Below, one piece after another: positions 2,909 through 51,905 of a stretch of 64,000 nt of DNA. The first letter of the stretch is position 1, and each line of letters begins with the position of its first letter. The notes beneath the pieces were generated by a model. It saw nothing but the letters and a program-made list of their open reading frames with translations, was not told the origin of the DNA and did not search any database. The translations under genes were made by a program, and so were the position numbers. This DNA comes from Deltaproteobacteria bacterium RIFCSPLOWO2_12_FULL_60_19 (lineage in GTDB: Bacteria > Desulfobacterota > Binatia > UBA9968), in assembly GCA_001798595.1 (NCBI GenBank), contig MGSS01000051.1, forward strand, positions 6,270 through 70,269. The letters run 5' to 3'.

Positions 2909-3062
2909 AGCGATCCTTGCTATTTCGACGCCCTAAAGCGGCCGGTATTCAAACAAAAACGGTTATGCCCATCAAAAAGCTTGAATTTTTCGTTAGTTGC
3001 CATAGAATCTGTTTAGGTTGCGCTTGCCGGCCATAGGATTTCCGCCGGCAGGGAAGGAAACT

Positions 3063-4112: not shown

Positions 4113-4309
4113 GGGGAGTTCTTTTTTTCCTTTTCCTGATCCTGTTTGCTGCCCGGCGTAACGTCGATTTCATCGGACTCCTTGATCGACCGGCGAAAGT
4201 TTCGTATGCCTTTAGCCAGTCCTTCGCCCAGCTCGGGGAGCTTGCGGCTGAACAGGATAAACACGAGCAGTAAGATGATCAGTAGTTCCCAGATTCCCAA
4301 GCCGAACAT
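4109..4309 (-). CDS. tatA: Twin-arginine translocase subunit TatA/E
   Basis: MFGLGIWELLIILLLVFILFSRKLPELGEGLAKGIRNFRRS is the canonical TatA N-terminal TM plus amphipathic helix. Internal Met chosen as start. Confidence 0.8.
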   Translation of the reverse strand: MFGLGIWELLIILLLVFILFSRKLPELGEGLAKGIRNFRRSIKESDEIDVTPGSKQDQEKEKKNSP

Positions 4310-4432
4310 AAATCCTCCGATGGTGGGCCATTCTAGAATACCCTCCCGCAGGATTGCAAGCATGATATCTTTGACAACCGCGACCTTCGCATCTGCCGGC
4401 GTTCCCTGCCGCCGCCACGGCCTTCGGCTCCC

Positions 4433-5500
4433 TTGCCCGATCCGATCGCAGGTCTAGGCATGCCCTTCGATCGACAGCCCACGATTTCCGTGATTGTTCC
4501 GGTGCATAACGGCGGCGAGAGCTTCCACAGGTGCCTGGCGAGCATTTTCCAGGCGACCCCCCCGCAGGAGGTCATCGTAGTCGCGGACGGAGACACCGAC
4601 GGCTCGTGGCTGGTTGCCGATCGTCTGGGCGCGCAGGTCATCCGGCTACCGGTGGCGGGCGGCCCGGGGCGGGCCCGAAATGAGGGCGCCCGCCATGCGG
4701 GCGGTGAGATTCTGTTTTTCGTCGACAGCGACGTCACGGTGCCGGCGGACGCGGTGAGTCGGGTTGCCGATCTCTTTGCGCGCGATCCTTCGCTGACCGC
4801 GCTGATAGGCTCCTATGACGACGAGCCCGCCGCTCCCAATTTTCTCTCCCAATATAAAAACCTGCTCCACCATTACGTCCATCAGTCGGCGCGCGAGGAA
4901 GCCGCGACTTTCTGGGGCGCATGTGGAGCTGTTCGCCGCGATGCTTTCACGGCGGCCGGCGGCTTCGACGAGAGCTATGGCAGGCCTTCGATCGAAGACA
5001 TCGAGTTGGGTTACCGCTTACGTCAGGCCGGCCACAAAATCCTTCTTTGCAAGGAACTTCAGGTAAAGCACCTCAAGCGCTGGGGAGTCTTGTCGCTGCT
5101 TAAATCCGATATCTTCGACCGCGCCGTTCCGTGGACGCAGCTGATGCTCAGGCACCGGCGTCTGCTCAACGATCTCAACCTCCGCACCTCGAGCCGAATG
5201 AGCGGGCTATTGTCTTTCGCGCTCCTCTCCTCGCTCGTCGGAGCGTTGTGGCGGACAGCACTGCTCGCAGCGGCGTTGGCATGCGGCATTCTTTTGTATG
5301 CTTTGAACGCCCCTCTCTTCCGCTTTTTCCGCCGTAAACGGGGGCTTACGTTCGCTCTCCGGGCTCTTCTCTGGCATTGGTTCTACTACCTCTACAGCAG
5401 CGCGGCTTTTGTTGCCGGCGTGCTGTTCTACCCGACTTGCAGGGGCATCTCCCGCGCCTCGCAGCCCGGCAAGCTGACTTCTTCGACAGGGAGACCCTGA
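4433..5500 (+). CDS. Family 2 glycosyltransferase (GT-A fold) with C-terminal membrane segments
   Basis: ISVIVPVHN, VVADGDTDGS, FVDSDV (DXD-like) and the ED-motif region IEDIELGYRL. Hydrophobic C-terminus. Confidence 0.8.
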   Translation: MPDPIAGLGMPFDRQPTISVIVPVHNGGESFHRCLASIFQATPPQEVIVVADGDTDGSWLVADRLGAQVIRLPVAGGPGRARNEGARHAGGEILFFVDSDVTVPADAVSRVADLFARDPSLTALIGSYDDEPAAPNFLSQYKNLLHHYVHQSAREEAATFWGACGAVRRDAFTAAGGFDESYGRPSIEDIELGYRLRQAGHKILLCKELQVKHLKRWGVLSLLKSDIFDRAVPWTQLMLRHRRLLNDLNLRTSSRMSGLLSFALLSSLVGALWRTALLAAALACGILLYALNAPLFRFFRRKRGLTFALRALLWHWFYYLYSSAAFVAGVLFYPTCRGISRASQPGKLTSSTGRP

Positions 5501-5509
5501 GCTTCCTTC

Positions 5510-7273
5510 ATGGATTCCAACCGAGTCGTGGTCATTGGGGGGGGACCCGCCGGCCTCACCGCAGCTTATCAACTGGCGAAGCTGGGGCGGCCTGCCACGG
5601 TGCTGGAAAAGCACCACATCGTCGGCGGCCTGGCCCGCACGGAAGATTACAAAGGCTTCGGCTTCGATATCGGCGGCCACCGCTTTTTCACCAAGGTCGA
5701 AGAGGTCAACCGCATGTGGCAGGAAGTCCTCGGGGAGGACTTCTTACGCCGGCCGCGATTGTCGAGAATCTACTACAACCGCAGGTTTTTCTACTATCCG
5801 CTGCGGCCCGTTAACGCGCTGATCGGCCTCGGTTTGTGGAAGAGCCTGCTGATCGTGCTTAGTTATCTCAAGTGGCAGATTTTCCCGCACCCGCGGGAGG
5901 AGACCTTCGAGCAATGGGTGACGAACCGCTTCGGCAGGAGACTGTTTCAAACGTTCTTCAAGACGTATACCGAAAAGGTCTGGGGCATCCCTTGCTCGGA
6001 GTTGCGCGCGGAATGGGCGGCGCAACGCATCCGCGGCCTCTCGCTGAAGACGGCGCTGCTCAGCATGTTCCTGAAGCCGAACCGAACCATCAAAACGTTG
6101 ATCGACGAGTTTCACTACCCGCGCCTCGGCCCGGGGATGATGTGGGAGAGGGTCAAAAGCGAGATTGAACGCAGCCACGGCACGGTAAAACTCAACTCGG
6201 AGGTCGTCTCGATCCAGCGAGAGGGAGATTTCCTCAGGCGTATCGTCGTTTCCAACCGCGGCCATCAGGAGATCGTAGAGGGTTCGGCGTTCATCTCGAG
6301 CATTCCCATAGGAGAGTTTCTCAAAAAGCTCGACCCTCCTCCGCCGCCTCGCGCATTGGACGCCGCCGAGGGCTTGCGTTATCGCGACCTCCTGGTTGTC
6401 TGTCTCATCCTGGGGCGGCCCCGCCTCTTCCCCGACAACTGGATCTATGTCCACGAGCCGGAGGTCAGAGTCGGACGCATCCAAAACTACAAAAACTGGA
6501 GCCCCGCTATGGTGCCCGACTCGTCCAAGACCAGCCTCGGGCTTGAGTATTTTTGCACTCGCGGGGACGATCTGTGGCGCATGTCGGACACGGAACTGCT
6601 GGAGCAGGGCAAGCGGGAGCTGGCTCGCATCGGTCTGGCGCGCGAGGAGGACGTCGAGGACGGCTGCGTGCTGCGCATCCCCTACGCCTATCCCGTGTAC
6701 GACGCCGGCTACCGCGCCAACCTGGCGCTGGTGCGGGAGTTCGTGGAAGGACTCAAAAATTTTCAAACCATCGGCCGCAACGGCCTGCACCGCTACAACA
6801 ACCAGGATCACGCCATGCTGACCGGCATGATGGCTGCGCGCAATCTGGTCTTTGGCGAGCGCAACGATCTCTGGAGCGTCAACACCGACCAGGAATACCA
6901 CGAGGAAGCTCTGATCGACGGCAAGGCCCTCGAAGAGGCGTTCTCCCGGATTTTTCTCAAGCTCGATCGCACGGCGTTCGGAGTGGCAGCGGGTCTGGTG
7001 TCGGGCGTGTTGCTGTTCCTGGTAACCCTCGGGGTGGTGATCAAGGGCGGCGACCTCATTGGCCCGACGTTGCAGCTCTTGCGCTATTATTTCCCCGGCT
7101 ACACCGTAAGTCCGGCGGGAAGCGTTATCGGGTTATTATATGGTCTAATAACCGGCTTTATCGGAGGCTGGCTCTTTGCGTTTCTACGCAACGCCGCGAT
7201 GTTTCTCTATCTGACCCGGTCGTACCGGAAAGCTCAGCGCGGGTTGCTGCGGCGATTCTTCGACTACACATAG
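5510..7273 (+). CDS. NAD(P)/FAD-dependent oxidoreductase (amine-oxidase/phytoene-desaturase-like fold) fused to a C-terminal 2-TM module
   Basis: N-terminal Rossmann motif VVVIGGGPAGLTAAYQLA...LEK..IVGGLART. The C-terminal ~95 aa contain two TM helices homologous to the downstream small ORF. Confidence 0.7.
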   Translation: MDSNRVVVIGGGPAGLTAAYQLAKLGRPATVLEKHHIVGGLARTEDYKGFGFDIGGHRFFTKVEEVNRMWQEVLGEDFLRRPRLSRIYYNRRFFYYPLRPVNALIGLGLWKSLLIVLSYLKWQIFPHPREETFEQWVTNRFGRRLFQTFFKTYTEKVWGIPCSELRAEWAAQRIRGLSLKTALLSMFLKPNRTIKTLIDEFHYPRLGPGMMWERVKSEIERSHGTVKLNSEVVSIQREGDFLRRIVVSNRGHQEIVEGSAFISSIPIGEFLKKLDPPPPPRALDAAEGLRYRDLLVVCLILGRPRLFPDNWIYVHEPEVRVGRIQNYKNWSPAMVPDSSKTSLGLEYFCTRGDDLWRMSDTELLEQGKRELARIGLAREEDVEDGCVLRIPYAYPVYDAGYRANLALVREFVEGLKNFQTIGRNGLHRYNNQDHAMLTGMMAARNLVFGERNDLWSVNTDQEYHEEALIDGKALEEAFSRIFLKLDRTAFGVAAGLVSGVLLFLVTLGVVIKGGDLIGPTLQLLRYYFPGYTVSPAGSVIGLLYGLITGFIGGWLFAFLRNAAMFLYLTRSYRKAQRGLLRRFFDYT

Positions 7274-7285
7274 GAGGGCTCTGCT

Positions 7286-7603
7286 ATGGCTGATGAAGAG
7301 AAGCGGCTCGAAGAGGTCATTCTCACGCGCCTCGTGCGGCTCAATGCCAAGATCCAGGGGGTCGTGGTCGGCCTGATCGCCGGAATCGGACTCTTCGTTG
7401 CCACCAACTGGCTCGTGTTGAAGGGCGGAAAGGCCGTCGGCCGCCATCTCTCGCTCCTGGGGCAGTTCTTCATCGGCTATAGCGTGACCTTTTCCGGCAG
7501 TTTGCTCGGCTTTGCTTATGCGTTCGTGTGCGGTTATATCATCGGGTATTCGGTGGCTCGAATCTACAATTGGATCGCAGATCTCAAGGAAGGAAAGTCT
7601 TGA
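7286..7603 (+). CDS. Small 2-TM membrane protein, paralogous to the C-terminal module of the preceding oxidoreductase
   Basis: VVVGLIAGIGLFVATNWLVLKGGKAVG...FIGYSVTFSGSLLGFAYAFVCGYIIGY aligns with VAAGLVSGVLLFLVTLGVVIKGGDLIG...FPGYTVSPAGSVIGLLYGLITGFIGGW in the upstream protein. Confidence 0.4.
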   Translation: MADEEKRLEEVILTRLVRLNAKIQGVVVGLIAGIGLFVATNWLVLKGGKAVGRHLSLLGQFFIGYSVTFSGSLLGFAYAFVCGYIIGYSVARIYNWIADLKEGKS

Positions 7604-7646
7604 TGGTGAGTGCCGCACGAGCCCTATCGCCTGACGGAATACGACC

Positions 7647-9257
7647 GTGAAGTTTCTCGATGATCTCAAGATGTACTGGCGCTTTGCCAGCGGGCTGCGT
7701 AGCTTCCTCCGTCATACCATTTCCCTTGAGGAAGCCCGAGCCATCGTGCGCAAGCGTATGGCCGATCGGGAAAAGAATTTCCTGCGCGTTGTTGAGCGCG
7801 GAATTTTCGGCTACCGGCGCAGTCCGTATCTACCGTTGTTGAAGCTTGCTCAAGTTGAATTTGGCGATATTCGGCACATGGTGGGGTCGAAAGGGCTCGA
7901 AGGGACGCTCCGAGCGCTGCGCGACGCGGGAGTTTACATCTCCTTCGAGGAGTTCAAGGGGCGCGCGCCTATCGTGCGGCAAGGACGAGTGATTCCCGTG
8001 CAGGCTCACGATTTTGATAATCCTTACCTCGGCCACTACTACCACGTCGAAACGGGCGGGACGACCGGAGCGGGGACGCGAGTCGAGATCGATCTGGACC
8101 ACCTGGCTGCGATCGCCCCTCTCTACACGTTGGCCGACCACTCCCACGGCGTGCTTTACGTGCCCCGTGTGATTTGGTTCGGCATTCTGCCGGATAGCTC
8201 CGGCGTAAACAATATTCTTGCATACGCGCGCTCAGGCCAGCTTCCCCGGAAGTGGTTCTCGCCCGTCGTCGGTCGTGATATCAAACCGGCGCTCAAGCAT
8301 CGTCTTGCCACTGGTTACCTTGTAGCTATGGGACGAATCTTTGGCGTGCCGGTCCCATGGGCCGAGGCCGTCAGAATCGAAGACGCGGGGACGGTCGCTC
8401 GCTGGGCGGCTGAGACTCTAAAGACGGATGGCAGATGTCTGATCCGCACGCATATCAGCAAGGCGCTGCGCGTCTGTCTGGCCGCGAGGGAGGAAGGACT
8501 CGAGCTCTCCGGCGTTACTTTTGTGGGCGGCGGTGAGCCGCCCACCGCGGGGAAGGTACAGGTCATCATAGGCACCGGGGCGCGCTACGTCCCCAACTAC
8601 TTCTTTACCGAAGCCGGTATCGTAGGAATCGGCTGCGCACGGCCTGCCGCCGTAAACGACATTCACCTCTTCAAAGACGTTCTCGCTCTCATCCAATATC
8701 CGCGTCAAGTGCCCGGCACGGAGATGAGCGTCGACGCTTTCCACTTCACCACTCTGCTGCCGACCGCACCCAAGCTGATGCTCAATGTCGAGAGCGATGA
8801 TTACGGTATCATCGAAACCCGCTCTTGCGGCTGTCCGTTAGAGAGCTACGGTTTCACACAGCACCTCCGTGACATCCGCAGCTTCCGCAAGCTCACCAGC
8901 GAAGGTGTAACGCTGGTAGGCGGCGAAATGATCCGCATCCTGGACGAAGTCCTGCCGGCGAAATTCGGGGGCAGTCCTCTGGACTACCAGTTGGCCGAAG
9001 AAGAAGACGAACAAGGCTTTACCCGGCTAAGCTTGTTGATCAGTCCAAAGATAAAGATTGCCGATGAGGCGGCGGTCATCGAGACTGTGCTGGAGGCGTT
9101 GGGGCGCAGCAGTGTTGCGGCAGACTTGGCCCGAGCGCACTGGAGTCAGGCGAAGACGCTGAGGGTGAAACGGCAAGAGCCGATCTGGACAGCTCGAGGA
9201 AAGCTCATGCCGCTCCATCTCGCAAGACGCGCTGACGGCTCAACCGGTTCCCGTTAA
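7647..9257 (+). CDS. PaaK/coenzyme-F390-synthetase-like adenylate-forming enzyme (ANL superfamily), paralog A; GTG start
   Basis: 536 aa. ETGGTTGAGTRV resembles the SSGTTG P-loop of phenylacetate-CoA ligase-like enzymes. About 70% identical to the ORF at 10376-12025. Confidence 0.55.
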   Translation: MKFLDDLKMYWRFASGLRSFLRHTISLEEARAIVRKRMADREKNFLRVVERGIFGYRRSPYLPLLKLAQVEFGDIRHMVGSKGLEGTLRALRDAGVYISFEEFKGRAPIVRQGRVIPVQAHDFDNPYLGHYYHVETGGTTGAGTRVEIDLDHLAAIAPLYTLADHSHGVLYVPRVIWFGILPDSSGVNNILAYARSGQLPRKWFSPVVGRDIKPALKHRLATGYLVAMGRIFGVPVPWAEAVRIEDAGTVARWAAETLKTDGRCLIRTHISKALRVCLAAREEGLELSGVTFVGGGEPPTAGKVQVIIGTGARYVPNYFFTEAGIVGIGCARPAAVNDIHLFKDVLALIQYPRQVPGTEMSVDAFHFTTLLPTAPKLMLNVESDDYGIIETRSCGCPLESYGFTQHLRDIRSFRKLTSEGVTLVGGEMIRILDEVLPAKFGGSPLDYQLAEEEDEQGFTRLSLLISPKIKIADEAAVIETVLEALGRSSVAADLARAHWSQAKTLRVKRQEPIWTARGKLMPLHLARRADGSTGSR

Positions 9258-9277
9258 GGATTGACGATCGCCGGATA

Positions 9278-10279
9278 ATGCACATCTCCACCTCCGTGAG
9301 CAAGCCCCCTTCCCCCTTCTTCATCGTGGGATGCACGCGGTCAGGCACGACTCTGATCTCCAGAATCTTGGACAGTCATTCCAGGCTGGCGGTCTATCAC
9401 GAGAGCCATTTTTATCATCTCCTGCGCAAGGATCTCCATCGTTATGGAGACTTGCGGCAGCCGGCCAACCTGCGTCGGTTCGTGGCTGATGTTCGGGAGG
9501 TCCTCCGGCGACAGCGAAAAATGGAGCCGCCAGGGGAACAAGAATTTCTCGAAGCGCTGGTCGCGCCTACTTTCGAAGGAGTGTTGGCTACGGTGTTGCA
9601 GCTCTATGCCCGGCTGCAAGGGAAACTCCGGGGGGGCGACAAGACACCGGGGCATCACAGCTATCTCCAAGAGATCACAGAGAAGCTCCCGGACAGTCCG
9701 GTGATCTTTGTGATGCGCGATCCCCGCGATGTCGTGCTCGCGATCCGGGAGAAGTTCGGCATCAGCCTCAAGGGCGCGACCGCGTTGTGGAATGCGGCCT
9801 TTATCAGTTACGAGAAGTTTTCCCATTGGGTTCACCTGGTACGGTACGAAAAGTTTGTGCAACAACCAACGGAAGGCGTGGAGGCGATGTGCGCCTACAT
9901 GGGTGAGCGCTACGAATCCGACATGCTGCGTTTCTACGAGAGAATTCCCGACCGGTTGGCGAGAATCCCATTTAACCAGGATCTCCTGGGACCGGTGGAT
10001 CCCCGGCATATGGGCAGGTTCCGGGAGATGCCGCCCCGGGAGATTGAACGAATTGAAGCCGCCTGCGCGGCTGGGATGGAAACCCTGGGGTACGATTTCA
10101 TCGGCGCGACGCCGAAGGCCTTACCCATTGCGCCCCCAACCAAGTTCGAATTCGTCATGGACCGGCTGCGCTATTATCGATGGGATTGGGGACGTTGGCG
10201 GCGCGGATGGATCCGCTGGAAGATCGTGTTGCGGCTGCGCGCTCGATATTTTTTGTCGTTGGGATGGCTCCGAGATTGA
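9278..10279 (+). CDS. PAPS-dependent sulfotransferase
   Basis: 5'-PSB motif FIVGCTRSGTTL and 3'-PB motif VMRDPRDVV. About 330 aa, typical of bacterial carbohydrate/lipid sulfotransferases. Confidence 0.7.
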   Translation: MHISTSVSKPPSPFFIVGCTRSGTTLISRILDSHSRLAVYHESHFYHLLRKDLHRYGDLRQPANLRRFVADVREVLRRQRKMEPPGEQEFLEALVAPTFEGVLATVLQLYARLQGKLRGGDKTPGHHSYLQEITEKLPDSPVIFVMRDPRDVVLAIREKFGISLKGATALWNAAFISYEKFSHWVHLVRYEKFVQQPTEGVEAMCAYMGERYESDMLRFYERIPDRLARIPFNQDLLGPVDPRHMGRFREMPPREIERIEAACAAGMETLGYDFIGATPKALPIAPPTKFEFVMDRLRYYRWDWGRWRRGWIRWKIVLRLRARYFLSLGWLRD

Positions 10280-10375
10280 GGATGAATGTGCCGCTGGAGC
10301 GCCTGTACCAGCACGCTTGGCCTGACCACGGACTCACTAAACCGCCGTGCCGGTCACAACCAGGAGCGTATAACC

Positions 10376-12025
10376 ATGAGTATCTTCGCTGATCTTAAAA
10401 TGTACTGGAGATTCGCAAGGGGACTGCGCAGTTTCCTCCGTCATACGCTTTCGCTTGAGGAAGCGAAGGCCATCGTGCGCCAGCGTATGGCGGATCGCGA
10501 AAAGAATTTCCTGCGCTTAGTGGACCACGGAATCTTCGGCTACCGGCGCAGTCCCTACCTTCCCTTACTCAAACTCGCCGGTTGCGAGATGGGAGACATC
10601 CGAAACATGGTTCGCTCCAAAGGACTGGAGGGGACGCTGCGCGCCCTGAGGGCAGCCGGGGTTTATATCACGTTCGAGGAGTTCAAGGGCCAGGAACCCA
10701 TCGTGCGCCAGGGGCGCGTGATCCCCGTACATGTTCATGACTTTGACAATCCTTACTTGAGTCACTACTACCAGGCTGAGACCGGTGGGACGACAGGCGC
10801 GGGGACGCGGGTCCAGATCGACTTAGATCACTTGGCGGAACGAGCTTCGTACGACTTGCTAACCTACGACGCCTATGGCGTGCTCGATGCGCCAGCCGCA
10901 ATGTGGCATGGTACCTTACCCGATAGCACGGGTATCAGCCGCATCCTGCGGCGCGCCCGTACGGGCCGTGTTGTGGAGAAGTGGTTCTCGCTCACAACAG
11001 GTCGAGATCTGAGAAGATCTCTCAAAAATCGTCTCGCTACCGAATACGTAATCCTTGCCGGGCGCCTCCTTGGCGTCCCCATTCCTCGCCCCGAACCGGT
11101 GAGTCTGGACCAGGCAGCCATGGTGGCCCTTTGGGCAGCTAAGATGCTGGAGGCTCATGGGGCCTGCCTGATCCATACCCTTGTCAGCAGGGCGGTGCGG
11201 GTATGCGTCGCCGCCCAGGAGAAGGGGCTCAAGCTTACTGGCGCTACCTTCCAGTTTGGCGGTGAACCGCTAACCCAAGCTAAGATGGCAGCGATTACGC
11301 GCACTGGTGCCCGGTGTTACCCGGCGTACCACTTCGAAGAAGCCGGTCCCGTGGGCATCGGTTGTGCCCGGCCGGTTGATGAAAACGATCAGCACTTTCT
11401 GAAGGACGCCTTGGCTTTGATCCAACATCCGCGCCAGGTGCCTGGTGCCGATATCACCGTTGACGCCTTCCACTTCACAACCCTGCTGCCTTCAGCGCCC
11501 AAGCTCATGCTCAACGTGGAAAGCGATGACTACGGCGTTGTAGAGACGCGCTCTTGTGGCTGCCCATTCGAGACCTACGGTTTCACAGAACACCTGCGTG
11601 ACATCCGCAGCTTCAGCAAGCTCACCAGTGAAGGCGTAACGTTGGTAGGCAGTGAAATGGTCCGCATCCTGGAGGAGGTCCTGCCGGCAAAATTCGGTGG
11701 CAGCCCTCTGGATTATCAGTTGATGGAGGAGGAGGATGAACAAGGCTTCACCCGGCTAAATTTGCTGGTAAGTCCGAAGATCGAGATCGCGGATGAGGCG
11801 GCGGTCATCGAGACGGTGCTTGAGGCGCTGGGCCGCAGCAGCGTCGCAGCGGATCTGGCCCGAGCCCATTGGGGCCAGGCCAAGACGCTGAGGGTAAAGC
11901 GGATAGAGCCTATCTGGACCGCCCGAGGCAAATTGATGCCGCTTCATCTGGCACGCCGCCCGGCGGGCCGGGCCAGCGCTTCAACAGAATCCAAGACCGC
12001 CTCAGGTCGCAAACCGAGCAACTAA
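10376..12025 (+). CDS. PaaK/F390-synthetase-like adenylate-forming enzyme, paralog B
   Basis: MSIFADLKMYWRFARGLRSFLRHT... is collinear with paralog A along its whole length (QAETGGTTGAGTRVQIDLDHL). Start placed at the ATG 9 nt after AGGAG rather than at the upstream in-frame ATG at 10286. Confidence 0.55.
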   Translation: MSIFADLKMYWRFARGLRSFLRHTLSLEEAKAIVRQRMADREKNFLRLVDHGIFGYRRSPYLPLLKLAGCEMGDIRNMVRSKGLEGTLRALRAAGVYITFEEFKGQEPIVRQGRVIPVHVHDFDNPYLSHYYQAETGGTTGAGTRVQIDLDHLAERASYDLLTYDAYGVLDAPAAMWHGTLPDSTGISRILRRARTGRVVEKWFSLTTGRDLRRSLKNRLATEYVILAGRLLGVPIPRPEPVSLDQAAMVALWAAKMLEAHGACLIHTLVSRAVRVCVAAQEKGLKLTGATFQFGGEPLTQAKMAAITRTGARCYPAYHFEEAGPVGIGCARPVDENDQHFLKDALALIQHPRQVPGADITVDAFHFTTLLPSAPKLMLNVESDDYGVVETRSCGCPFETYGFTEHLRDIRSFSKLTSEGVTLVGSEMVRILEEVLPAKFGGSPLDYQLMEEEDEQGFTRLNLLVSPKIEIADEAAVIETVLEALGRSSVAADLARAHWGQAKTLRVKRIEPIWTARGKLMPLHLARRPAGRASASTESKTASGRKPSN

Positions 12026-12142
12026 CTGCTCCGGTGCGACACACGCTTCGTTTGTTCCTTCCGAGTTTGACGGGATAATTTCCCTAAGATATTGTAACCG
12101 CCGTATCGCATCCGGGGACACGCCGCTTATTCCAGCACATCA

Positions 12143-13417
12143 ATGATGGACCGACCGTTGCGCTTCTGCATGATCACGACCTTCTACCCGCCTTACAACT
12201 TCGGCGGGGATGGGATCTTTGTCCACCGCCTATCCAACGAGCTGGCGCGCCGCGGCCATCAGGTCGACGTCATCCATTGCCGGGACGCCTACCGGTCCGT
12301 GGCAGGTCGCGACGCTTCCGGCAAATATGACGACCATCCGAATGTGACGGTCCACGGCCTCAAAAGCCCCTTCGGATGGCTTTCCCCGCTGGCAACGCAA
12401 CAAACCGGTTTTCCGTTCTTCAAGTCGACAGCTATTGCTCGAATTCTGGATAAAGGCTTTGATGTCATCCACTGCCATAACATCTCACTGCTCGGGCCAA
12501 AAGTTTTGGAATACGGCTGCGGCGTCAAGCTATACACCATGCATGAATACTGGCTGGTATGCCCCACTCAAGTGCTGTTCAGGTTCAACCGCGCGGCATG
12601 CATTCGGCCGCACTGCTTTCTGTGCACGCTGAGCTATAAGCGGCCGCCGCAGTGGTGGCGTTACACGGCTCTTCTTGAAACCGCGACCAAGCACGTGGAT
12701 GCATTCATCGCCCCGAGCCGTTTCAGCAAAGAAAAACACCGTGAGATGGGACTCGCCATGCCGGTTGTGCATTTGCCCCATTTCTTCTCTTCAGCCGAGG
12801 ACGATTCTGCGCCGAGGACGCAAGGCGCGGCCGCCGAGGCGGCGAAACCCTATTTTCTCTTCGTTGGCCGCCTGGAAAAGCTCAAAGGGCTTCAAACCCT
12901 CATCCCGGTTTTCAAGAGCTACGCGAAGGCTCAGCTGCTCGTCGCGGGCACAGGCACTTACGAGTCAAACCTGAGGCGACTGGCTGCGGGCAGCCCGAAC
13001 ATCCGGTTTCTCGGTCATCTGCCCGAAAGCAAACTGCCGGCCCTCTATCGCCAGGCGGTTGCGGTCATCGTGCCGTCGATCTGCTTCGAGACTTTCGGCC
13101 AGGTCATCATCGAGAGCTTCAGCCAGAAGACGCCAGCCGTGGCGAGAAACCTAGGCGCCATGCCGGAGATCATTGAAGAGAGCGGCGGCGGATTGGTTTA
13201 CGACACGGAAGCCGAGCTGATTGTCGCGATGGATCGCCTGTTGACGGATTCATCGTACCGGCGCACTTTGGGAATCAACGGTCATGAAGCTTACTTGCGG
13301 AACTGGACGCCGGAAGTTCACATGCAGCGTTATTTTGCTTTGATCCACGAGATCCGGCAGCGCAGGCTGACCGCAACTTCGACACGCGGGAGGACTCATT
13401 CAAGTGGACACCTTTAG
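12143..13417 (+). CDS. GT4 (GT-B fold) glycosyltransferase
   Basis: N-terminal FYPPYNFGGDGIFVHRLSNELARRGHQV. C-terminal E-x7-E motif ETFGQVIIESFS. Confidence 0.8.
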   Translation: MMDRPLRFCMITTFYPPYNFGGDGIFVHRLSNELARRGHQVDVIHCRDAYRSVAGRDASGKYDDHPNVTVHGLKSPFGWLSPLATQQTGFPFFKSTAIARILDKGFDVIHCHNISLLGPKVLEYGCGVKLYTMHEYWLVCPTQVLFRFNRAACIRPHCFLCTLSYKRPPQWWRYTALLETATKHVDAFIAPSRFSKEKHREMGLAMPVVHLPHFFSSAEDDSAPRTQGAAAEAAKPYFLFVGRLEKLKGLQTLIPVFKSYAKAQLLVAGTGTYESNLRRLAAGSPNIRFLGHLPESKLPALYRQAVAVIVPSICFETFGQVIIESFSQKTPAVARNLGAMPEIIEESGGGLVYDTEAELIVAMDRLLTDSSYRRTLGINGHEAYLRNWTPEVHMQRYFALIHEIRQRRLTATSTRGRTHSSGHL

Positions 13418-15428
13418 AGATCTGCCGGCGCGAATATTTTATAAGCATCCAAGACTTCTCGCCTTCGTTTTCCTCGCTGCGATCAGCTTTGTCGCTTATG
13501 TTAACGCCCTGCCGAACAGCTTTCATTTTGATGATGTTGTCGGCGTCGTTCGGAATCCCACGATTCGGGATCTAAAATATATACCTTCCTACTTTACTGA
13601 TCCGTCCACCTTTGCTCTTGGCCGCACCCGGGAATGGCGTCCGGTGCTACAGATAACCTACGCGCTGAATTATTCGATCGCCGGCCTCAATCCCATCGTC
13701 TTTCGCGTCTTTAACCTTCTTTTCCATCTAGGAACGGCCTTTTTGATTTTTCTCGTCATCACAGAGATATGCGAGCACCCACCCCGCAAACTGCAGTCGG
13801 ATTCCCGTGTGCCCGTGGCTTTGCCTGCGCTTTTCGCGGCAAGTCTCTTCGCCGTCCATACGGCGAACACCGAAGCCGTGGACTACATCTGGGCGCGGAG
13901 TTCCGTTCTCGCAACCTTCTTTTACCTGCTCGCTTTCTACTGCTTCCTGCGGGGGCCTTTCAGCGACGGGAGGAGCAAACAACTGCCGTGGCATGCAGCG
14001 GGACTGCTCTCGTTTGCATTGGGGGTGGGCACTAAAGCGACCGCTGTTACTTTACCCGCGGTCTTGGTGCTTTACGAAATCCTGTTTCTCAACCCAGCTG
14101 GGAAAAGCCCGCCGCGATTGTTCCTCGACGAACCTCGGCGGATCAAAAAATATATCCCGGTAATCGCGGTTTTTTTCGCCTATCTCGCGATCCGAACGTT
14201 ACTTTTGCCTCGAATGTTCACCAATATCGCGGCGGCTAGAGAAGTTTCATCGCTGTCTTACCTGCTTACTCAATTTCGCGCTTGGATTTACTATCTCAAG
14301 CTCTTTTTATGGCCTCACCCGTTGCTCGTTGATTTCGCCGGCTTCGGCTGGTCCCATTCCCTCTGGGACATCAAAGTCTTGTTGTCGCTCGGGTTGATCA
14401 GCGCGCTTCTCGTTGTCGCGTGGCGCGTGCGCCGGACGAAGCCGCTAATAAGCTTCTTTGCCTTTTGGTACTTTGTCGCGCTGCTGCCCGAGGCAAGCTT
14501 CATCCCGCTGGCCGACGCGGTCGTTGGTTACCGCGCCTATCCCGCGTACATCGCGCTCGCGGTGATCGCCGCGATGCTCGGCCTTGAAGGATGTTTGTGG
14601 CTCTGGAATCGATTCGGTGGATCGGACGAAAGAAACGCCTCGCGGCTTCGGCACCTCTGCGTCATGCTGGGAAGCCTGGTCCTGGCGGCACTCATCGCCG
14701 CCACGATCGCCCGCAATCGGGATTGGCGCGACGGGATGACGCTGTGGAGCGACGTCATCCAAAAGGACCCTGCAAACCCTCGCGCCTATATGATGCTCGG
14801 GGCGCAATTTCTCAATCAGGAAGACTACGAAAATGCTAAAGAGATGCTCGAACATGCAATTAGATTGCGACCCGGACGATCTCATGCCTACGTGCTTCGG
14901 GGATATCTGAACTCACGCCTAAACCGCCATGAGGAGGCCCTGTCGGATCTCGACCGGGCGGTCCAACTGGACTCCCGCGCCCCCTACGCCTACTTCTATC
15001 GCGGGGAACTGCACAGAAGAACGGGCGAATATGAAAAAGCTCTGGCCGATTACCATGCCGCGTTGAGGTTCCTGCCCTTTTACACCGACGCCTACCTCGG
15101 CCTTGCCATGACGCATTTGGAGAAACATGAAACTGCCAAAGCTATCGAGGCTTGCACGAAACTGGTCGGAATCGATCCTGAGGATCGGCGGGGGTACGAT
15201 TGTCTGGGAAACCTTTTCATCGAGCAAGGGCGCTTCCCGGAGGCAGTCGCCTTATATCAACAAGGGACTCGCCGCATCCCGCGAGATAGTGGGCTCTGGT
15301 ATGGCTTGGGAGTCGCCCATGAGAAAAACGGGAATTATGAGGAAGCGGGAAATGCGTTTGAAAAGGCCGGCCGGTTAACGTCTGAAACGAATCAGAGATC
15401 GCCTATAATGATTCCCTTGGTTGAGTAG
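13404..15428 (+). CDS. Polytopic membrane protein with DUF1736/PMT-like N-terminal domain and C-terminal TPR repeats (TMTC-like putative glycosyltransferase)
   Basis: NSFHFDDVVGVVRNPTIRDL motif. About 10 predicted TM helices. C-terminal TPR repeats (AYVLRGYLNSRLNRHEEALSDLDRAVQLD...). Confidence 0.6.
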   Translation: MDTFRDLPARIFYKHPRLLAFVFLAAISFVAYVNALPNSFHFDDVVGVVRNPTIRDLKYIPSYFTDPSTFALGRTREWRPVLQITYALNYSIAGLNPIVFRVFNLLFHLGTAFLIFLVITEICEHPPRKLQSDSRVPVALPALFAASLFAVHTANTEAVDYIWARSSVLATFFYLLAFYCFLRGPFSDGRSKQLPWHAAGLLSFALGVGTKATAVTLPAVLVLYEILFLNPAGKSPPRLFLDEPRRIKKYIPVIAVFFAYLAIRTLLLPRMFTNIAAAREVSSLSYLLTQFRAWIYYLKLFLWPHPLLVDFAGFGWSHSLWDIKVLLSLGLISALLVVAWRVRRTKPLISFFAFWYFVALLPEASFIPLADAVVGYRAYPAYIALAVIAAMLGLEGCLWLWNRFGGSDERNASRLRHLCVMLGSLVLAALIAATIARNRDWRDGMTLWSDVIQKDPANPRAYMMLGAQFLNQEDYENAKEMLEHAIRLRPGRSHAYVLRGYLNSRLNRHEEALSDLDRAVQLDSRAPYAYFYRGELHRRTGEYEKALADYHAALRFLPFYTDAYLGLAMTHLEKHETAKAIEACTKLVGIDPEDRRGYDCLGNLFIEQGRFPEAVALYQQGTRRIPRDSGLWYGLGVAHEKNGNYEEAGNAFEKAGRLTSETNQRSPIMIPLVE

Positions 15429-15456: not shown

Positions 15457-15488
15457 AAAAAAAAGGGGGGATTTTATCCCCCCCCTCA
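15457..15488. terminator. Bidirectional rho-independent terminator between convergent genes
   Basis: AAAAAAAAGGGGGGATTTTATCCCCCCCC is a perfect G/C stem flanked by an A-run and a T-run. Confidence 0.7.
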
Positions 15489-15544: not shown

Positions 15545-16429
15545 TCAATCAGAATGAGGGGCTGTAAATGAACCCACAGGCTTGGGACCGGCGTCCAGGT
15601 ACTTACGGCGCCAGTCAAGGAGCGACGTCTTGTCCTTGCCGAAAAAGACCCGCACCCCGGATTCATAGCTATAGCGGGAGCGATTGTCCACTGTGAGCTT
15701 GAACACGTTGACCTCAACGTTTTCCAACGGCATCACGGACATGCCAAGGACCGGCCCGACTCCGGCGCTGCGAACCTTGTGACGGTAGGGGCCTCCAAAC
15801 GTGTTGACCTGCAGGCCGACGGTCAGCTCTAGATTATTCTTCTTGTTTCCCGTGAGCACGTTGAGTGCGCCAAGGTCGATTGTAGGGAAATAACTTACAG
15901 TGCCCTGAAGCCGGTTTGTTGGGACCATAAGCCGTTTAGCGTCCTCCTTCCTAAAATGAGTACATTTGTCATCTGCGCAAACCTCCTGTTGCGGGGAGGA
16001 AACCGGCTGAGTGTAGCTAACATTCACATTCATCTGGGGGTAGTAAAGGGCCACTGCTGGAGTGAGCCACAAGTAGTTAGAATCTCTGAGGGTACGGGCC
16101 TGGTAGTTCACAAAAACGCCGGCTTTACCCCCAACCCAGCCGTAAACCGGACCAACGTCTAAACCAAACTTGCTCCCCTGACCTCCAGTGTACTGAGCCC
16201 GTCCCTGAAGACCGAGATTTTGCAAGGCAAACGGGAGCATTCCCAAAGCCTCAATCGAACCTCTAGCGCCGGCTCGACCGACATGGTAACCCTGCGGTAA
16301 ACCTGTTTCCCTCTCTGCGCCAACAGATGCAGCCACGTAACCGAATGTCTCAATCTGCGCCGCGATCCCTCTCGGTACCCAAAGCACAACCGCCATGAAA
16401 ATGGCAAGCGCGCTAGCTAGTAACTTCAT
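15545..16429 (-). CDS. Putative outer-membrane beta-barrel protein (porin-like), signal peptide
   Basis: MKLLASALAIFMAVVLWVPRGIAAQ signal. Alternating hydrophobic/polar beta-strand pattern. Unknown family. Confidence 0.45.
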   Translation of the reverse strand: MKLLASALAIFMAVVLWVPRGIAAQIETFGYVAASVGAERETGLPQGYHVGRAGARGSIEALGMLPFALQNLGLQGRAQYTGGQGSKFGLDVGPVYGWVGGKAGVFVNYQARTLRDSNYLWLTPAVALYYPQMNVNVSYTQPVSSPQQEVCADDKCTHFRKEDAKRLMVPTNRLQGTVSYFPTIDLGALNVLTGNKKNNLELTVGLQVNTFGGPYRHKVRSAGVGPVLGMSVMPLENVEVNVFKLTVDNRSRYSYESGVRVFFGKDKTSLLDWRRKYLDAGPKPVGSFTAPHSD

Positions 16430-24378: not shown

Positions 24379-24455
24379 TGGTGGGCCCACCTGGATTCGA
24401 ACCAGGGACCTACCGGTTATGAGCCGGTGGCTCTAACCAGCTGAGCTATGGGCCC
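24379..24455 (-). tRNA. tRNA-Met (anticodon CAT), elongator-type or tRNA-Ile2 precursor
   Basis: Reverse complement GGGCCCATAGCTCAGCTGGTTAGAGCCACCGGCTCATAACCGGTAGGTCCCTGGTTCGAATCCAGGTGGGCCCACCA. The 7-bp acceptor stem has a G1-C72 pair, so it is not an initiator tRNA. CAT anticodon, encoded CCA. Confidence 0.85.
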
Positions 24456-48842: not shown

Positions 48843-48918
48843 ATCTCCAAAGGTCTATGGCACATCCGCGTAGAAAATTAAAGGAGATGGAACCATCGGA
48901 CGGGCTAACAATCGGTTC

Positions 48919-50076: not shown

Positions 50077-50077
50077 T

Positions 50078-51476: not shown

Positions 51477-51477
51477 G

Positions 51478-51879: not shown

Positions 51880-51905
51880 GACTACCGCCTCCTTCTTGAA
51901 CTCTC

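What the first reader, a model, noticed from the sequence alone, without database searches (positions are those of the whole stretch)
4433..15428. Glycoconjugate-modification locus: GT2, FAD oxidoreductase, duplicated PaaK-like adenylating enzymes around a sulfotransferase, GT4, PMT/TPR membrane protein
Eight co-directional genes with short gaps suggest one pathway that builds and decorates a glycolipid or polysaccharide. Decoration is by sulfation (PAPS sulfotransferase with canonical 5'-PSB and 3'-PB motifs) and probably acylation or amidation (two PaaK/F390-synthetase-like adenylate-forming enzymes). An adenylating-enzyme paralog pair bracketing a sulfotransferase is not an arrangement I know from characterised O-antigen, capsule or EPS loci. 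The terminal DUF1736/TPR protein resembles eukaryotic TMTC/PMT-type glycosyltransferases.
Basis: partly seen in the sequence, partly recalled or inferred. Interest (0 to 1): 0.65.

Follow-up and report, generated by a model that had tools for sequence, protein, structure and literature searches.

The report
Sulfating, acylating glycoconjugate operon, uncultured bacteria
Eight co-directional genes form a conserved operon of uncultured soil and groundwater bacteria that most likely builds, sulfates, acylates and exports a membrane-linked sugar, and its two "unknown" genes belong to a large unannotated branch of the PaaK adenylate-forming ligases.

Summary
Window 4433-15428 carries eight + strand genes with gaps of -14 to 117 nt: GT2, a membrane-anchored UDP-galactopyranose-mutase-like flavoprotein, a 105-aa 2-TM protein, PaaK-like ligase 1, a PAPS-type sulfotransferase, PaaK-like ligase 2, GT4, and a multi-TM + TPR protein.

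The two ligases (73% identical) hit nothing in Pfam or NCBIfam. A family profile finds PaaK-family chains in the PDB (E = 1e-10), and a pLDDT-92 model matches PaaK1/PaaK2/BT_0428/NatL2 first (E = 3e-17). They also keep the Cys3His zinc site of NatL2. The PaaK call is therefore right. The family is large (2,328 50%-identity clusters), named only "hypothetical", and the 80 genome loci returned (of 207 relatives found) were all MAGs.

The gene order GT2-flavoprotein-smallTM-ligase-sulfotransferase-GT4-TM/TPR recurs in at least 7 other MAGs, with one ligase each. Only this window has the ligase-sulfotransferase-ligase bracket, which looks like a local duplication.

Across 82 loci the ligase's usual neighbour is an SsuA/TauA-type binding lipoprotein plus an ABC importer (48 loci), sometimes with a TonB receptor. 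This suggests the ligase activates a small carboxylic acid.

"DUF1736" is not confirmed by HMM; TMTC motifs are only partly present. The product and substrates are inferred, not shown.

The parts
4433..5500 (+). GT2 glycosyltransferase with hydrophobic C-terminal segments. The likely true start is ATG 4460.
   Evidence: PF00535 E = 2e-25, 90 bits against a cut-off of 23.3. PF13632 and PF13506 cover aa 86-313. All NCBIfam equivalog hits are far below their cut-offs. PDB hits are generic GT2 enzymes; DPM synthase 5mlz reaches only 4e-4. Start codon read.
5510..7273 (+). FAD flavoprotein of the PRK07208 family, related to UDP-galactopyranose mutase, with a C-terminal 2-TM tail (aa ~470-587).
   Evidence: NF005548 scores 670.7 bits against a cut-off of 389. 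The best PDB relatives are eukaryote-type UDP-galactopyranose mutases (3ukh, E = 4.9e-20). The UGM equivalog TIGR00031 scores only 29.9 bits against 303.75. The tail is homologous to the next gene.
7286..7603 (+). 105-aa 2-TM protein, a paralogue of the flavoprotein's C-terminal tail. Candidate membrane partner or flippase subunit (inferred).
   Evidence: 37% identity, E = 1e-17 to aa 470-587 of the flavoprotein. No Pfam or PHROGs family. The NCBIfam holin_4 hit is below cut-off, 39 bits against 70. It follows the flavoprotein in 21 of the loci examined.
7647..9257 (+). PaaK-like adenylate-forming ligase, copy 1 (536 aa), with a NatL2-type Cys3His site.
   Evidence: No Pfam, NCBIfam or PDB hit as a single sequence. 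The family profile against the PDB finds 9s3l at 1.1e-10, 4r1l at 2e-8 and NatL2 6siw at 8e-7. The model has pLDDT 91.9. Foldseek finds PaaK1 2y27 at 3e-17 and PaaK2 and BT_0428 at TMt 0.63. Invariant residues include C330, H340, D385, C394 and K519.
9278..10279 (+). PAPS-type sulfotransferase (Sulfotransfer_3) with a conserved Arg/Trp-rich C-terminal amphipathic tail.
   Evidence: PF13469 E = 1.1e-26. CurM sulfotransferase is the nearest solved chain. The PSB and PB residues and the tail residues R296, R298, W307, R308, R313, L318, R319 and R321 are invariant in 8 homologues.
10286..12025 (+). PaaK-like ligase, copy 2. The ORF starts at 10286; the likely start is ATG 10376, preceded by AGGAG.
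   Evidence: 73% identical to copy 1, aligned from its residue 31. Sequence context. Ligases of the sulfotransferase-type operons in other MAGs score slightly higher against this copy than against copy 1.
12143..13417 (+). GT4 (GT-B fold) glycosyltransferase.
   Evidence: PF00534 at 9e-26 and PF13439 at 3e-17. There are weak, sub-threshold similarities to MshA, BshA and GlgA-type models.
13404..15428 (+). Multi-TM protein (aa 1-~435) fused to a C-terminal TPR domain. Probable GT-C-type, TMTC-like transferase; membership not established.
   Evidence: TPR families score E = 1e-31. The TM part has no Pfam hit at E <= 10. D43-D44 follow TM1 directly and are invariant in 12 homologues. TMTC motifs M1-M7 are partly present and collinear. 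JGI names several homologues 'protein O-mannosyl-transferase'.
15462..15487 (.). G/C hairpin between the operon's end and the convergent gene 15545-16429. It marks the 3' boundary.
   Evidence: 10-bp stem with 6 GC pairs, T-run on the - strand only.

Best explanation
The region is one operon, conserved in Binatia-like and related uncultured bacteria. It most likely assembles a lipid-linked sugar at the inner face of the cytoplasmic membrane, decorates it, and hands it to an acceptor outside the cytoplasm.

Shown:
- The gene families.
- The block synteny.
- The two unknown proteins are zinc-site-bearing PaaK-type adenylate-forming enzymes of a large unannotated family.
- The flavoprotein is UGM-like and carries a 2-TM tail that is paralogous to the next small protein.
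- The sulfotransferase keeps its PAPS-binding residues and a conserved cationic Trp-rich tail.

Inferred mechanism:
1. The GT2 (with its own membrane segments) and the GT4 put one or two sugars on a membrane lipid carrier.
2. The membrane-anchored UGM-like flavoenzyme remodels a sugar, by ring contraction or a redox step.
3. The sulfotransferase, held at the membrane surface by its amphipathic tail, adds sulfate from PAPS.
4. Each PaaK-like ligase adenylates a small carboxylic acid and transfers it to a hydroxyl or amine of the intermediate. This could be direct, as in the CoA-independent PaaK-type enzyme NatL2, or via CoA.
5. The 2-TM pair helps anchor or flip the intermediate.
6. The TM/TPR protein acts as a GT-C-type transferase whose TPR domain selects the periplasmic acceptor.

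The ligase-sulfotransferase-ligase bracket is a local duplication. It probably gives two acyl specificities, and is not a new architecture.
For: Operon:
- Short gaps and no intergenic + strand terminators.
- Identical order in L013, L022, L024, L036, L039, L018 and L007, and in L026 and L030 without the sulfotransferase.

Ligase family:
- Profile against the PDB finds only PaaK-family chains.
- The pLDDT 91.9 model matches PaaK1, PaaK2, BT_0428, HCL and NatL2 at E = 3e-17 to 1e-12, ahead of other ANL enzymes at about 1e-8.
- The P-loop TGGTTG, Y318/E322, D385 and K519 are conserved.
- C330/H340/C394/C396 align with the structural zinc ligands C248/H254/C308/C310 of NatL2 (PMC7204872).

Small-acid substrate:
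- In 48 of 82 loci an SsuA-family lipoprotein follows the ligase. It is often translationally coupled (4-nt overlap).
- There are up to four ligase-binding-protein pairs ahead of a single TauB/TauC-like ABC pair.
- 16 loci add a TonB-dependent receptor.

Membrane and export side:
- 2-TM tail and its paralogue.
- Conserved Arg/Trp tail on the sulfotransferase.
- DD motif and TPR in the last protein.
- Recurrent Wzx, PMT_2, CE4 deacetylase and GT4 genes in related loci.
- Precedent for lipid-linked-donor synthase + flippase + GT-C systems (PMC11127046).
Against: - No substrate, product or activity is known for any of the eight proteins.
- The GT2 is not demonstrably a polyprenyl-phosphate glycosyltransferase.
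- The TM domain of the last protein fails every HMM or profile test for PMT, PMT_2 and DUF1736. It also replaces the metal-binding Glu of TMTC motif M4 with Ala.
- Many ligase loci have no glycosylation genes at all, and the third paralogue of this same MAG stands alone. The ligase family is therefore not intrinsically a glycan-modifying family.
- The window holds no PAPS-synthesis genes.
- A promoter-like hexamer pair lies in the 117-nt gap before the GT4 gene, so sub-operonic transcription is possible.
Confidence: 0.5

Rival explanations
1. The PaaK-like ligases are uptake-coupled acid-CoA ligases for assimilating a scavenged organic acid or organosulfonate. Their presence among glycosylation genes reflects shared regulation or accident, not chemistry on the glycan.
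For: - The dominant context is ligase > SsuA-like lipoprotein > (TonB receptor) > TauB/TauC-like ABC pair, in 48, 16 and 40 of 82 loci respectively.
- Many such loci lack any glycosyltransferase.
- Paralogue P0077 of this MAG is monocistronic.
- L086 has a 4HBT thioesterase nearby.
- The archetype PaaK is a catabolic CoA ligase.
Against: - In 10 loci the ligase sits in a fixed slot between the small TM gene and the GT4 gene, with tight spacing.
- No conserved downstream catabolic enzymes appeared in an all-against-all clustering of neighbouring ORFs.
- Glycan genes (CE4 deacetylase, GT4, Wzx, PMT_2) also recur in the transporter-type loci.
Confidence: 0.2
2. The locus makes a soluble small glycoside, such as a mycothiol- or bacillithiol-like cofactor or a compatible solute. 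The logic is GT4 glycosylation followed by ATP-dependent ligation of an acid, here with added sulfation. It does not make an envelope glycoconjugate.
For: - The GT4 has weak similarity to MshA (1.7e-14) and BshA (4.9e-13) models.
- Related loci add a deacetylase (15 of 82), and L006 adds a GNAT-like gene. This reproduces the GT4-deacetylase-ligase-acetyltransferase order of Msh/Bsh pathways. The Msh/Bsh pathway logic is from established knowledge.
Against: - All those NCBIfam scores are far below their cut-offs.
- The deacetylase is of the CE4/NodB type, not LmbE, and it is absent from this window.
- The membrane anchors, Wzx and PMT_2 genes, and the TM/TPR protein argue for a membrane or periplasmic destination.
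Confidence: 0.1
3. The system is specifically a bacterial protein O-glycosylation pathway of the TMTC type. The TPR domain recruits periplasmic or envelope proteins, and the other seven genes only make the lipid-linked, sulfated or acylated donor.
For: - TM + TPR architecture, the DD motif, and partial collinear TMTC motifs M1-M7.
- JGI names homologues protein O-mannosyl-transferase.
- L022, L036 and L039 carry a second TM/TPR paralogue directly upstream of the operon.
Against: - DUF1736, PMT and PMT_2 HMMs do not match and the profile comparisons are negative.
- The M4 Glu and M5 Trp are replaced.
- The acceptor type cannot be read from sequence.
Confidence: 0.15
4. The eight genes are neighbours by chance and are independently regulated.
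For: A promoter-like match lies in the 117-nt gap before the GT4 gene. Promoter-like matches were no more frequent than in shuffled sequence.
Against: - Block synteny across at least 9 other MAGs assigned to different lineages.
- No intergenic terminators.
- A 14-nt overlap between the last two genes.
Confidence: 0.03

Closest known systems
PaaK family of ANL adenylate-forming enzymes: phenylacetate-CoA ligase PaaK1/PaaK2, BT_0428, 2-hydroxyisobutyryl-CoA ligase, NatL2/AjiA1
   Same: - Two-domain fold, with best Foldseek hits at E = 3e-17 to 1e-12.
- The profile hits only these chains in the PDB.
- The P-loop, Y..E, Asp and C-terminal Lys are conserved.
- The Cys3His site aligns with the structural zinc of NatL2.
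   Different: - About 100 residues longer (536 aa against about 430-440).
- 14-16% identity to the solved chains.
- Invisible to the Pfam and NCBIfam models.
- The genomic partners are binding-protein/ABC importers, glycosyltransferases or a sulfotransferase, not paa catabolic or benzoxazole genes.
- Substrate and CoA dependence are unknown.
Three-component periplasmic glycosylation systems (GtrA/GtrB/Gtr*, ArnC/ArnD/ArnE-F/ArnT, and the C. youngae pentofuranose system of PMC11127046)
   Same: - A membrane-associated GT2, small membrane proteins and a large multi-TM transferase candidate in one operon.
- Related loci add a CE4 deacetylase (in the ArnD position) and PMT_2 proteins.
   Different: - The GT2 is not shown to be a polyprenyl-phosphate glycosyltransferase.
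- The small TM proteins are unrelated to GtrA, ArnE/F or MATE.
- The GT-C assignment is unproven.
- There are extra enzymes (GT4, UGM-like flavoprotein, sulfotransferase, PaaK-like ligases) with no counterpart in those systems.
Eukaryotic TMTC1-4 O-mannosyltransferases (GT-C/PMT clan)
   Same: - An N-terminal multi-TM domain followed by TPR repeats.
- A DD motif right after TM1.
- Collinear partial matches to M2 (..WRP), M3 (R165), M4 (K211.T..T216), M5 (D310) and M7 (R377.Y379), at positions similar to TMTC1.
   Different: - The DUF1736 HMM is not matched.
- M4 Glu is replaced by Ala, M5 Trp by Phe, and the M3 Asp and M7 Glu are absent.
- It is bacterial, and the donor is unlikely to be dolichyl-P-mannose.
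Bacterial PAPS-dependent sulfotransferases acting on glycoconjugates or lipids (NoeE/NodH of Nod factors, mycobacterial Stf0, CurM ST)
   Same: Sulfotransfer_3 fold and PAPS-binding motifs. There is weak similarity to NoeE (2.7e-7) and CurM ST.
   Different: - Below every equivalog cut-off.
- It carries a conserved Arg/Trp-rich C-terminal tail.
- It sits next to a PaaK-like ligase, a pairing not found in the papers searched.
Mycothiol/bacillithiol biosynthesis (MshA-MshB-MshC-MshD; BshA-B-C)
   Same: The logic of GT4 glycosylation, deacetylation and ATP-dependent ligation of an acid to the freed amine is mirrored in related loci (GT4 + CE4 deacetylase + ligase + GNAT-like).
   Different: - The ligase and deacetylase families are different.
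- This window has no deacetylase.
- Membrane and export components are present.

Membership tests
ANL superfamily / PaaK family | Two-domain adenylate-forming fold closest to PaaK-type structures | tested here: met
   The model has pLDDT 91.9 and pTM 0.90. The top Foldseek PDB hits are PaaK1 2y27 (3.2e-17), PaaK2 2y4o (5e-16, TMt 0.63), BT_0428 (TMt 0.63), HCL and NatL2. Other ANL enzymes follow at about 1e-8. The first, poorer model (pLDDT 73.7) also hit only ANL enzymes.
ANL superfamily / PaaK family | Significant sequence-profile similarity to characterised members | tested here: met
   hmmsearch of the 122-sequence profile against the PDB: 9s3l 1.1e-10, 4r1l 2.1e-8, 6siw 8e-7, 6wuq 9e-6, 2y4o 0.026. 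Nothing else scores below E = 1.
ANL superfamily / PaaK family | Match to curated family HMMs (Pfam AMP-binding and relatives; NCBIfam PaaK or F390-synthetase models) | tested here: not met
   Zero Pfam families at E <= 10 and zero NCBIfam families at E <= 0.01 for both copies. None of the homologues listed in the two searches carries a precomputed Pfam domain.
ANL superfamily / PaaK family | Core motifs: P-loop (A3), Y..TE (A5), ribose-binding Asp (A7), catalytic Lys (A10) | tested here: inconclusive
   - A3: TGGTTGAGTR at aa 136-145, but only G138 is >= 90% conserved family-wide.
- A5: Y318 and E322 are >= 90% conserved and align with YG.TE of PaaK chains.
- A7: D385 is invariant and aligns with the GD/RD of PaaK chains.
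- A10: K519 is invariant in a GK context 17 residues from the C-terminus, but its equivalence to PaaK Lys422 was not shown in a printed alignment.
ANL superfamily / PaaK family | NatL2-type structural zinc site (Cys3His) | tested here: met
   C330, H340 and C394 are invariant and C396 is >= 90% conserved in 122 sequences. They align with C248, H254, C308 and C310 of 6siw, which are the zinc ligands (PMC7204872). Metal binding itself was not tested.
ANL superfamily / PaaK family | ATP-dependent adenylation of a carboxylate; CoA or other acceptor | not testable with these tools
   Needs an enzyme assay.
PAPS-dependent sulfotransferase (Sulfotransfer_3) | Family HMM above cut-off and conserved 5'-PSB / 3'-PB residues | tested here: met
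   PF13469 scores 94.9 bits against a cut-off of 27. G18, R21, G23, T24, T25, R147, D148 and R150 are invariant in 8 homologues. They align with the corresponding CurM ST segments.
UDP-galactopyranose mutase | Equivalog-level similarity to UGM | tested here: not met
   TIGR00031 scores 29.9 bits against a cut-off of 303.75, and Pfam GLF reaches only 0.0087. Still, the closest solved relatives are eukaryote-type UGMs at E = 5e-20. It belongs to the uncharacterised PRK07208 group (NF005548, 670.7 bits against 389).
TMTC / PMT-clan GT-C glycosyltransferase | Pfam DUF1736, PMT or PMT_2 HMM match | tested here: not met
   No Pfam family at E <= 10 for aa 1-438. None of the listed homologues has a Pfam domain in the TM part. 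The profile against the PDB gives no hit. hhalign against PMT_2-type proteins gives probability 1.5%.
TMTC / PMT-clan GT-C glycosyltransferase | TMTC motifs M1-M7 (DD, SHKSYRP, RxD, KE(T/Q)xxT, DW, PxxP, ERxxY) plus a C-terminal TPR domain | tested here: inconclusive
   - M1: D43-D44 are invariant.
- M2: ..W78-R79-P80.
- M3: R165, but no Asp.
- M4: K211-A-T213-..-T216 (Glu replaced by Ala).
- M5: D310-F.
- M6: P362......P369, with different spacing.
- M7: R377-A-Y379.
The order and approximate positions are as in TMTC1, and the TPR domain is present. The motif matching was done by eye.
Three-component periplasmic glycosylation system | Polyprenyl-phosphate glycosyltransferase + flippase + GT-C transferase | tested here: inconclusive
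   A GT2 with membrane segments is present, but similarity to PpgS, DPM or AglJ-type models is weak (E = 1e-5 to 5e-4, far below cut-off). The flippase role of the 2-TM pair is conjecture. The GT-C assignment is unproven (see the rows above).
GT2 and GT4 glycosyltransferases | Family HMMs above cut-off | tested here: met
   PF00535 scores 90.1 bits against 23.3. PF00534 scores 90.9 against 26.4 and PF13439 scores 63.6 against 28.5.

The most novel reading that the evidence does not exclude
The unannotated PaaK-like family defines a widespread 'capture-and-attach' system of uncultured bacteria. Dedicated ligases, each paired with its own SsuA/TauA-type binding protein (plus an ABC importer and sometimes a TonB receptor), would activate scavenged small acids, possibly sulfonated ones. 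They would ligate them, without CoA as in NatL2, onto lipid-linked envelope glycans. In the Binatia-type operon the importer is replaced by a sulfotransferase, so the charged decoration would be made inside the cell. The membrane-anchored UGM-like flavoenzyme would then be acting on a lipid-linked sugar rather than a nucleotide sugar.
Probability: 0.15. Interest if true: 0.8.

Novelty: new variant of a known kind. Interest (0 to 1): 0.55.

Why it matters
Three points.

1. A protein family with more than 2,300 50%-identity clusters can now be placed as a zinc-site PaaK-type ligase. Members are 60-75% identical across phyla. Pfam and NCBIfam do not recognise it, and the 80 genome loci returned (of 207 relatives found) were all MAGs. 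Its fixed pairing with binding proteins gives a direct experimental handle: the ligand of the binding protein should reveal the ligase substrate.

2. The operon combines a sulfotransferase, ATP-dependent acylation, a membrane-tethered mutase-like flavoenzyme and a TMTC-like TM/TPR protein. This points to anionic, sulfated envelope glycoconjugates in Binatia-like bacteria. Sulfated glycans are uncommon in bacteria, and nothing is known about the envelopes of these lineages.

3. It supplies bacterial relatives of the TMTC architecture in a defined donor-synthesis context.

Tried and rejected
- Single-sequence searches of the ligase (Pfam at E <= 10, NCBIfam, PDB phmmer) gave nothing or noise: riboflavin synthase at E = 0.55.
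- The first structure model, from a shallow 31-sequence alignment, was mediocre (pLDDT 73.7). It gave only generic ANL hits with TM 0.2-0.38. It was replaced by a 122-sequence alignment.
The closer one worked.
- For the TM/TPR protein, Pfam on the TM part, the PDB profile search and hhalign against three PMT_2-type proteins were all negative.
- Literature searches for PaaK + sulfotransferase + glycosyltransferase, and for F390 synthetase in polysaccharide clusters, found nothing relevant.
- A single-linkage clustering of neighbouring ORFs over-counted the binding protein (70 of 82 loci). Stop-to-stop ORFs chained through conserved alternative frames of the ligase gene. It was replaced by HMM searches with a coverage filter, giving 48 of 82.
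- The idea that the small TM protein is a holin (NCBIfam holin_4) was rejected. The score is below cut-off, there is no PHROGs hit, and the context is not phage-like.
- The idea that the sulfotransferase functionally substitutes for the binding-protein/ABC module, because both concern sulfur oxyanion compounds, is kept only as a hypothesis. The SsuA/NMT1 family binds many non-sulfur ligands, and L071 has both.

Full report
**Source and layout.** The best database match to the first ligase is 100% identical to a hypothetical protein of "Deltaproteobacteria bacterium RIFCSPLOWO2_12_FULL_60_19", a groundwater MAG. The second ligase and a third paralogue are from the same MAG.

The window has eight + strand ORFs at 4433-5500, 5510-7273, 7286-7603, 7647-9257, 9278-10279, 10286-12025, 12143-13417 and 13404-15428. 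Upstream lies a divergent tatA-like gene (4109-4363, - strand; PF02416, 1.6e-11). Downstream lies a convergent gene behind a G/C hairpin at 15462-15487.

None of the five weak + strand terminator-like matches lies in an intergenic gap. Promoter-like matches are no more frequent than in shuffled sequence. One of them (9 of 12 matches) sits in the 117-nt gap before the GT4 gene. The rest of the window is housekeeping: rpoD, dnaG, dxs, ispA, xseA, leuS, murJ, H+-PPase and ribBA. The locus is therefore chromosomal and not on an obvious island. GC content is even across it.

**Family assignments that hold.**
- The GT2, GT4, Sulfotransfer_3 and TPR assignments are above Pfam cut-offs.
- The flavoprotein belongs to the uncharacterised PRK07208 group (NF005548, 670.7 bits). 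Its closest solved relatives are eukaryote-type UDP-galactopyranose mutases (E = 5e-20). It fails the UGM equivalog model, so "UGM-like" is a resemblance and not membership.
- The flavoprotein's last ~118 residues form a 2-TM unit that is 37% identical (E = 1e-17) to the following 105-aa protein. This gives a fused and a free copy of the same membrane module.
- The sulfotransferase keeps the PAPS-binding residues. All eight homologues compared carry an Arg/Trp-rich C-terminal tail with eight invariant residues. I read this tail as an interfacial membrane anchor; that is an inference.

**The two "PaaK-like" proteins.**
- They are 73% identical.
- As single sequences they match nothing in Pfam (E <= 10), NCBIfam or the PDB.
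- The family is very large. There are 2,090 hits among the candidates scored in the 90%-clustered collection, and 2,328 50%-identity clusters at E <= 1e-3 (782 at <= 1e-30). All named members are called hypothetical, and none has a Pfam domain.
- A 122-sequence profile searched against the PDB finds only PaaK-family chains: 9s3l at 1.1e-10, BT_0428 4r1l at 2e-8, NatL2 6siw at 8e-7, AjiA1 at 9e-6 and PaaK2 at 0.026.
- A model built on that alignment has pLDDT 91.9 and pTM 0.90. Its top Foldseek matches are PaaK1, PaaK2, BT_0428, 2-hydroxyisobutyryl-CoA ligase and NatL2 (E = 3e-17 to 1e-12; TM up to 0.63 on the target). Generic ANL enzymes follow at about 1e-8.
- The family-invariant residues are R41, C330, H340, N380, D385, C394, G442, Q448 and K519.
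- C330, H340, C394 and C396 align with C248, H254, C308 and C310 of NatL2. These are its tetrahedral structural zinc ligands (PMC7204872).
- NatL2 is a PaaK-type enzyme that forms an ester without CoA. CoA-independent transfer is therefore a live possibility here, though untested.
- Conclusion: the PaaK/ANL assignment is correct, and the family is a deep branch missing from both annotation libraries searched.

**Context in other genomes.** A scan of one genome per GTDB species found 207 relatives, and 80 loci were returned. All 80 are MAGs: Binatia, Syntrophaceae, Methylomirabilis, Rokubacteria, Acidobacteriota, Gemmatimonadota, Verrucomicrobiota, Chloroflexota, Eisenbacteria and Brocadiia. 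I searched all ORFs of 82 non-redundant sources, first with the window's proteins and then with HMMs built from the hits.

| Neighbour of the ligase | Loci (of 82) |
|---|---|
| SsuA/NMT1-type binding protein | 48 |
| ABC ATPase | 40 |
| ABC permease | 31 |
| GT4 | 25 |
| UGM-like flavoprotein | 22 |
| GT2 | 18 |
| TonB-dependent receptor | 16 |
| CE4 deacetylase | 15 |
| PF01663 phosphodiesterase | 11 |
| TM/TPR protein | 10 |
| Sulfotransferase | 9 (plus a truncated one in L018) |

Many contigs are short, so these counts are lower bounds.

Two context types stand out.
- **Transporter type.** The order is ligase > lipoprotein binding protein (SsuA family, 6e-22) > ABC pair closest to TauB/TauC and SsuB/SsuC. 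The ligase and binding-protein genes often overlap by 4 nt. Up to four ligase-binding-protein pairs precede a single ABC pair. Some loci add a TonB receptor.
- **Window type.** The order is GT2 > flavoprotein > small TM > ligase > sulfotransferase > GT4 > (a ~230-aa P-loop protein in some loci) > TM/TPR. It occurs in L013, L018, L022, L024, L036 and L039. L007 has the order sulfotransferase > ligase. L026 and L030 lack the sulfotransferase.

Hybrid loci join the two types. An example is L006: GT2-flavoprotein-smallTM-ligase-binding protein-ABC-deacetylase-GNAT-GT4-GT2-GT11-PMT_2.

Only the window has two ligases flanking the sulfotransferase. Ligases of the other sulfotransferase-type operons are 2-4 points of identity closer to copy 2 than to copy 1. 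The bracket is therefore a local duplication or insertion in an otherwise conserved operon.

**The last protein.** The TPR domain is clear. The TM domain has no Pfam match at E <= 10. A 12-sequence profile finds nothing in the PDB. A profile-profile comparison with three PMT_2-type proteins from related loci is negative (probability 1.5%). "DUF1736" is thus not confirmed.

Against the seven TMTC motifs of Eisenhaber et al. (PMC7801869), the family shows the following:

| TMTC motif | Here |
|---|---|
| M1 DD | D43-D44 right after TM1, invariant |
| M2 SHKSYRP | W78-R79-P80 |
| M3 RxD | R165, no Asp |
| M4 KE(T/Q)xxT | K211-A-T213-..-T216 (metal-binding Glu is Ala) |
| M5 DW | D310-F (Trp is Phe) |
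| M7 ERxxY | R377-A-Y379 |

These are collinear, at positions close to those of TMTC1. JGI names about a dozen homologues "protein O-mannosyl-transferase". I treat a GT-C role as likely but unproven.

**Mechanism.** What is shown: the families, the operon, the synteny, the membrane modules and the ligase's partners.

What is inferred: a lipid-linked sugar is built by the GT2 and GT4 and remodelled by the tethered UGM-like flavoenzyme. It is sulfated from PAPS and acylated by the PaaK-like ligase(s) with a small carboxylic acid. It is then transferred outside the cytoplasm by the TM/TPR protein. This is the logic of lipid-donor synthase + flippase + GT-C systems (PMC11127046).

The one-to-one pairing of ligase paralogues with binding-protein paralogues elsewhere is the best clue that the ligase substrate is a small, specific acid. 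In this window, which has no importer, the acid would come from the cell's own metabolism.

In the sulfotransferase-type operons the gene directly after the ligase is the sulfotransferase. In the transporter-type loci a sulfonate/taurine-family importer's binding protein holds that place. This is suggestive but not evidence of equivalence. The SsuA/NMT1 family binds many ligands, and L071 has both.

**Rivals.**
- An uptake-coupled catabolic CoA ligase merely adjacent to glycan genes (0.2).
- A soluble mycothiol-like glycoside pathway (0.1).
- A strictly protein-directed TMTC-type O-glycosylation system, which is a special case of the main model (0.15).
- Chance adjacency (0.03), contradicted by the synteny.

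**Novelty and score.** Every enzyme class here is known, and glycan loci with "F390-synthetase/PaaK-like" genes have been annotated before. I file the finding as a new variant of a known kind. Three things are new:
- A very large ligase subfamily, unnamed by any source, is recognised and placed.
- It has consistent partnerships with binding proteins, a sulfotransferase and glycan genes.
- There is a conserved operon in Binatia-like MAGs that combines it with a membrane-tethered UGM-like enzyme and a TMTC-like protein.

Interest is 0.55. The family assignments are solid and there is a testable handle, but there is no functional evidence.

Noticed in passing
L001 9660-11282 (same MAG, another contig): A third PaaK-like paralogue (P0077, 68% identical to copy 1) stands alone. 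It lies between a divergent cupin gene and a convergent NMT1/SsuA-type binding-protein gene, with no glycosylation genes nearby.
   Followed up: partly
JGI contig of P0069 (no DNA held); L004 10001-16906: Tandem arrays of ligase-binding-protein pairs precede a single ABC ATPase/permease pair. There are four pairs on the JGI contig and two in L004. Polysaccharide deacetylase, GT4, GT2, GT11 or Wzx genes follow.
   Followed up: partly
L083 12601-14709; L057 12780-15005; L060 14169-16328; L067 7615-9981: In Gemmatimonadota, Eisenbacteria and Thermoanaerobaculales MAGs a TonB-dependent receptor is inserted in, or lies next to, the ligase-binding-protein-ABC module. Together these give a complete outer-membrane-to-cytoplasm uptake route beside the ligase.
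   Followed up: partly
L022 13983-14672 (similar ~700-nt gaps in L018, L026, L030, L036, L039): Related operons carry an extra ~230-aa gene between GT4 and TM/TPR. It has a Walker-A-like GPTAAGKST motif and no Pfam family. It is absent from the window, where GT4 and TM/TPR overlap by 14 nt.
   Followed up: partly
L018 3028-3315: The sulfotransferase slot of this Binatia MAG holds only a 96-codon fragment. This could be a pseudogene or an assembly or frameshift artefact.
   Followed up: no
L022 3558-5579; L036 3769-5778; L039 3757-5787: A second TM/TPR paralogue sits about 1 kb upstream of the GT2 gene in three related operons. The window has none at that position.
   Followed up: no
window 4109-4363 (-): A small TatA/E-family gene lies divergent from the operon. 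The likely start gives a 66-aa protein (PF02416, 1.6e-11).
   Followed up: yes
window 1394-4112: An ECF sigma factor (2354-2908, -) with a zf-HC2 anti-sigma gene (1818-2357, -), and a divergent 364-aa zinc-ribbon protein with a hydrophobic segment (3018-4112, +), lie just upstream of the operon. A regulatory link to the operon was not examined.
   Followed up: no
window 16734-19543 (+): Two tandem MmgE/PrpD-family paralogues (494 and 456 aa) overlap by 46 nt, downstream of the operon.
   Followed up: no
window 15545-16429 (-); 19707-20435 (+); 29810-30859 (-): Three ORFs of 294, 242 and 349 aa have no Pfam family: the first two at E <= 10, the third at E <= 1e-8.
   Followed up: no
window 42355-44622 (+): A 755-aa radical SAM protein (PF04055, 1e-19) of unassigned subfamily lies among housekeeping genes.
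   Followed up: no
window 48842-52485: A stretch of about 3.6 kb has lower GC (0.52-0.55) and only short ORFs (<= 147 aa), plus one tRNA at 50746-50833 (-). A second tRNA is at 24382-24455 (-).
   Followed up: no
L086 12399-12809 (-): On a 3.6-Mb metagenome contig a distant family member (P0446) sits next to a methyltransferase, a 4HBT thioesterase and Rieske proteins. This is a different context that could hint at CoA-thioester chemistry in that branch.
   Followed up: no
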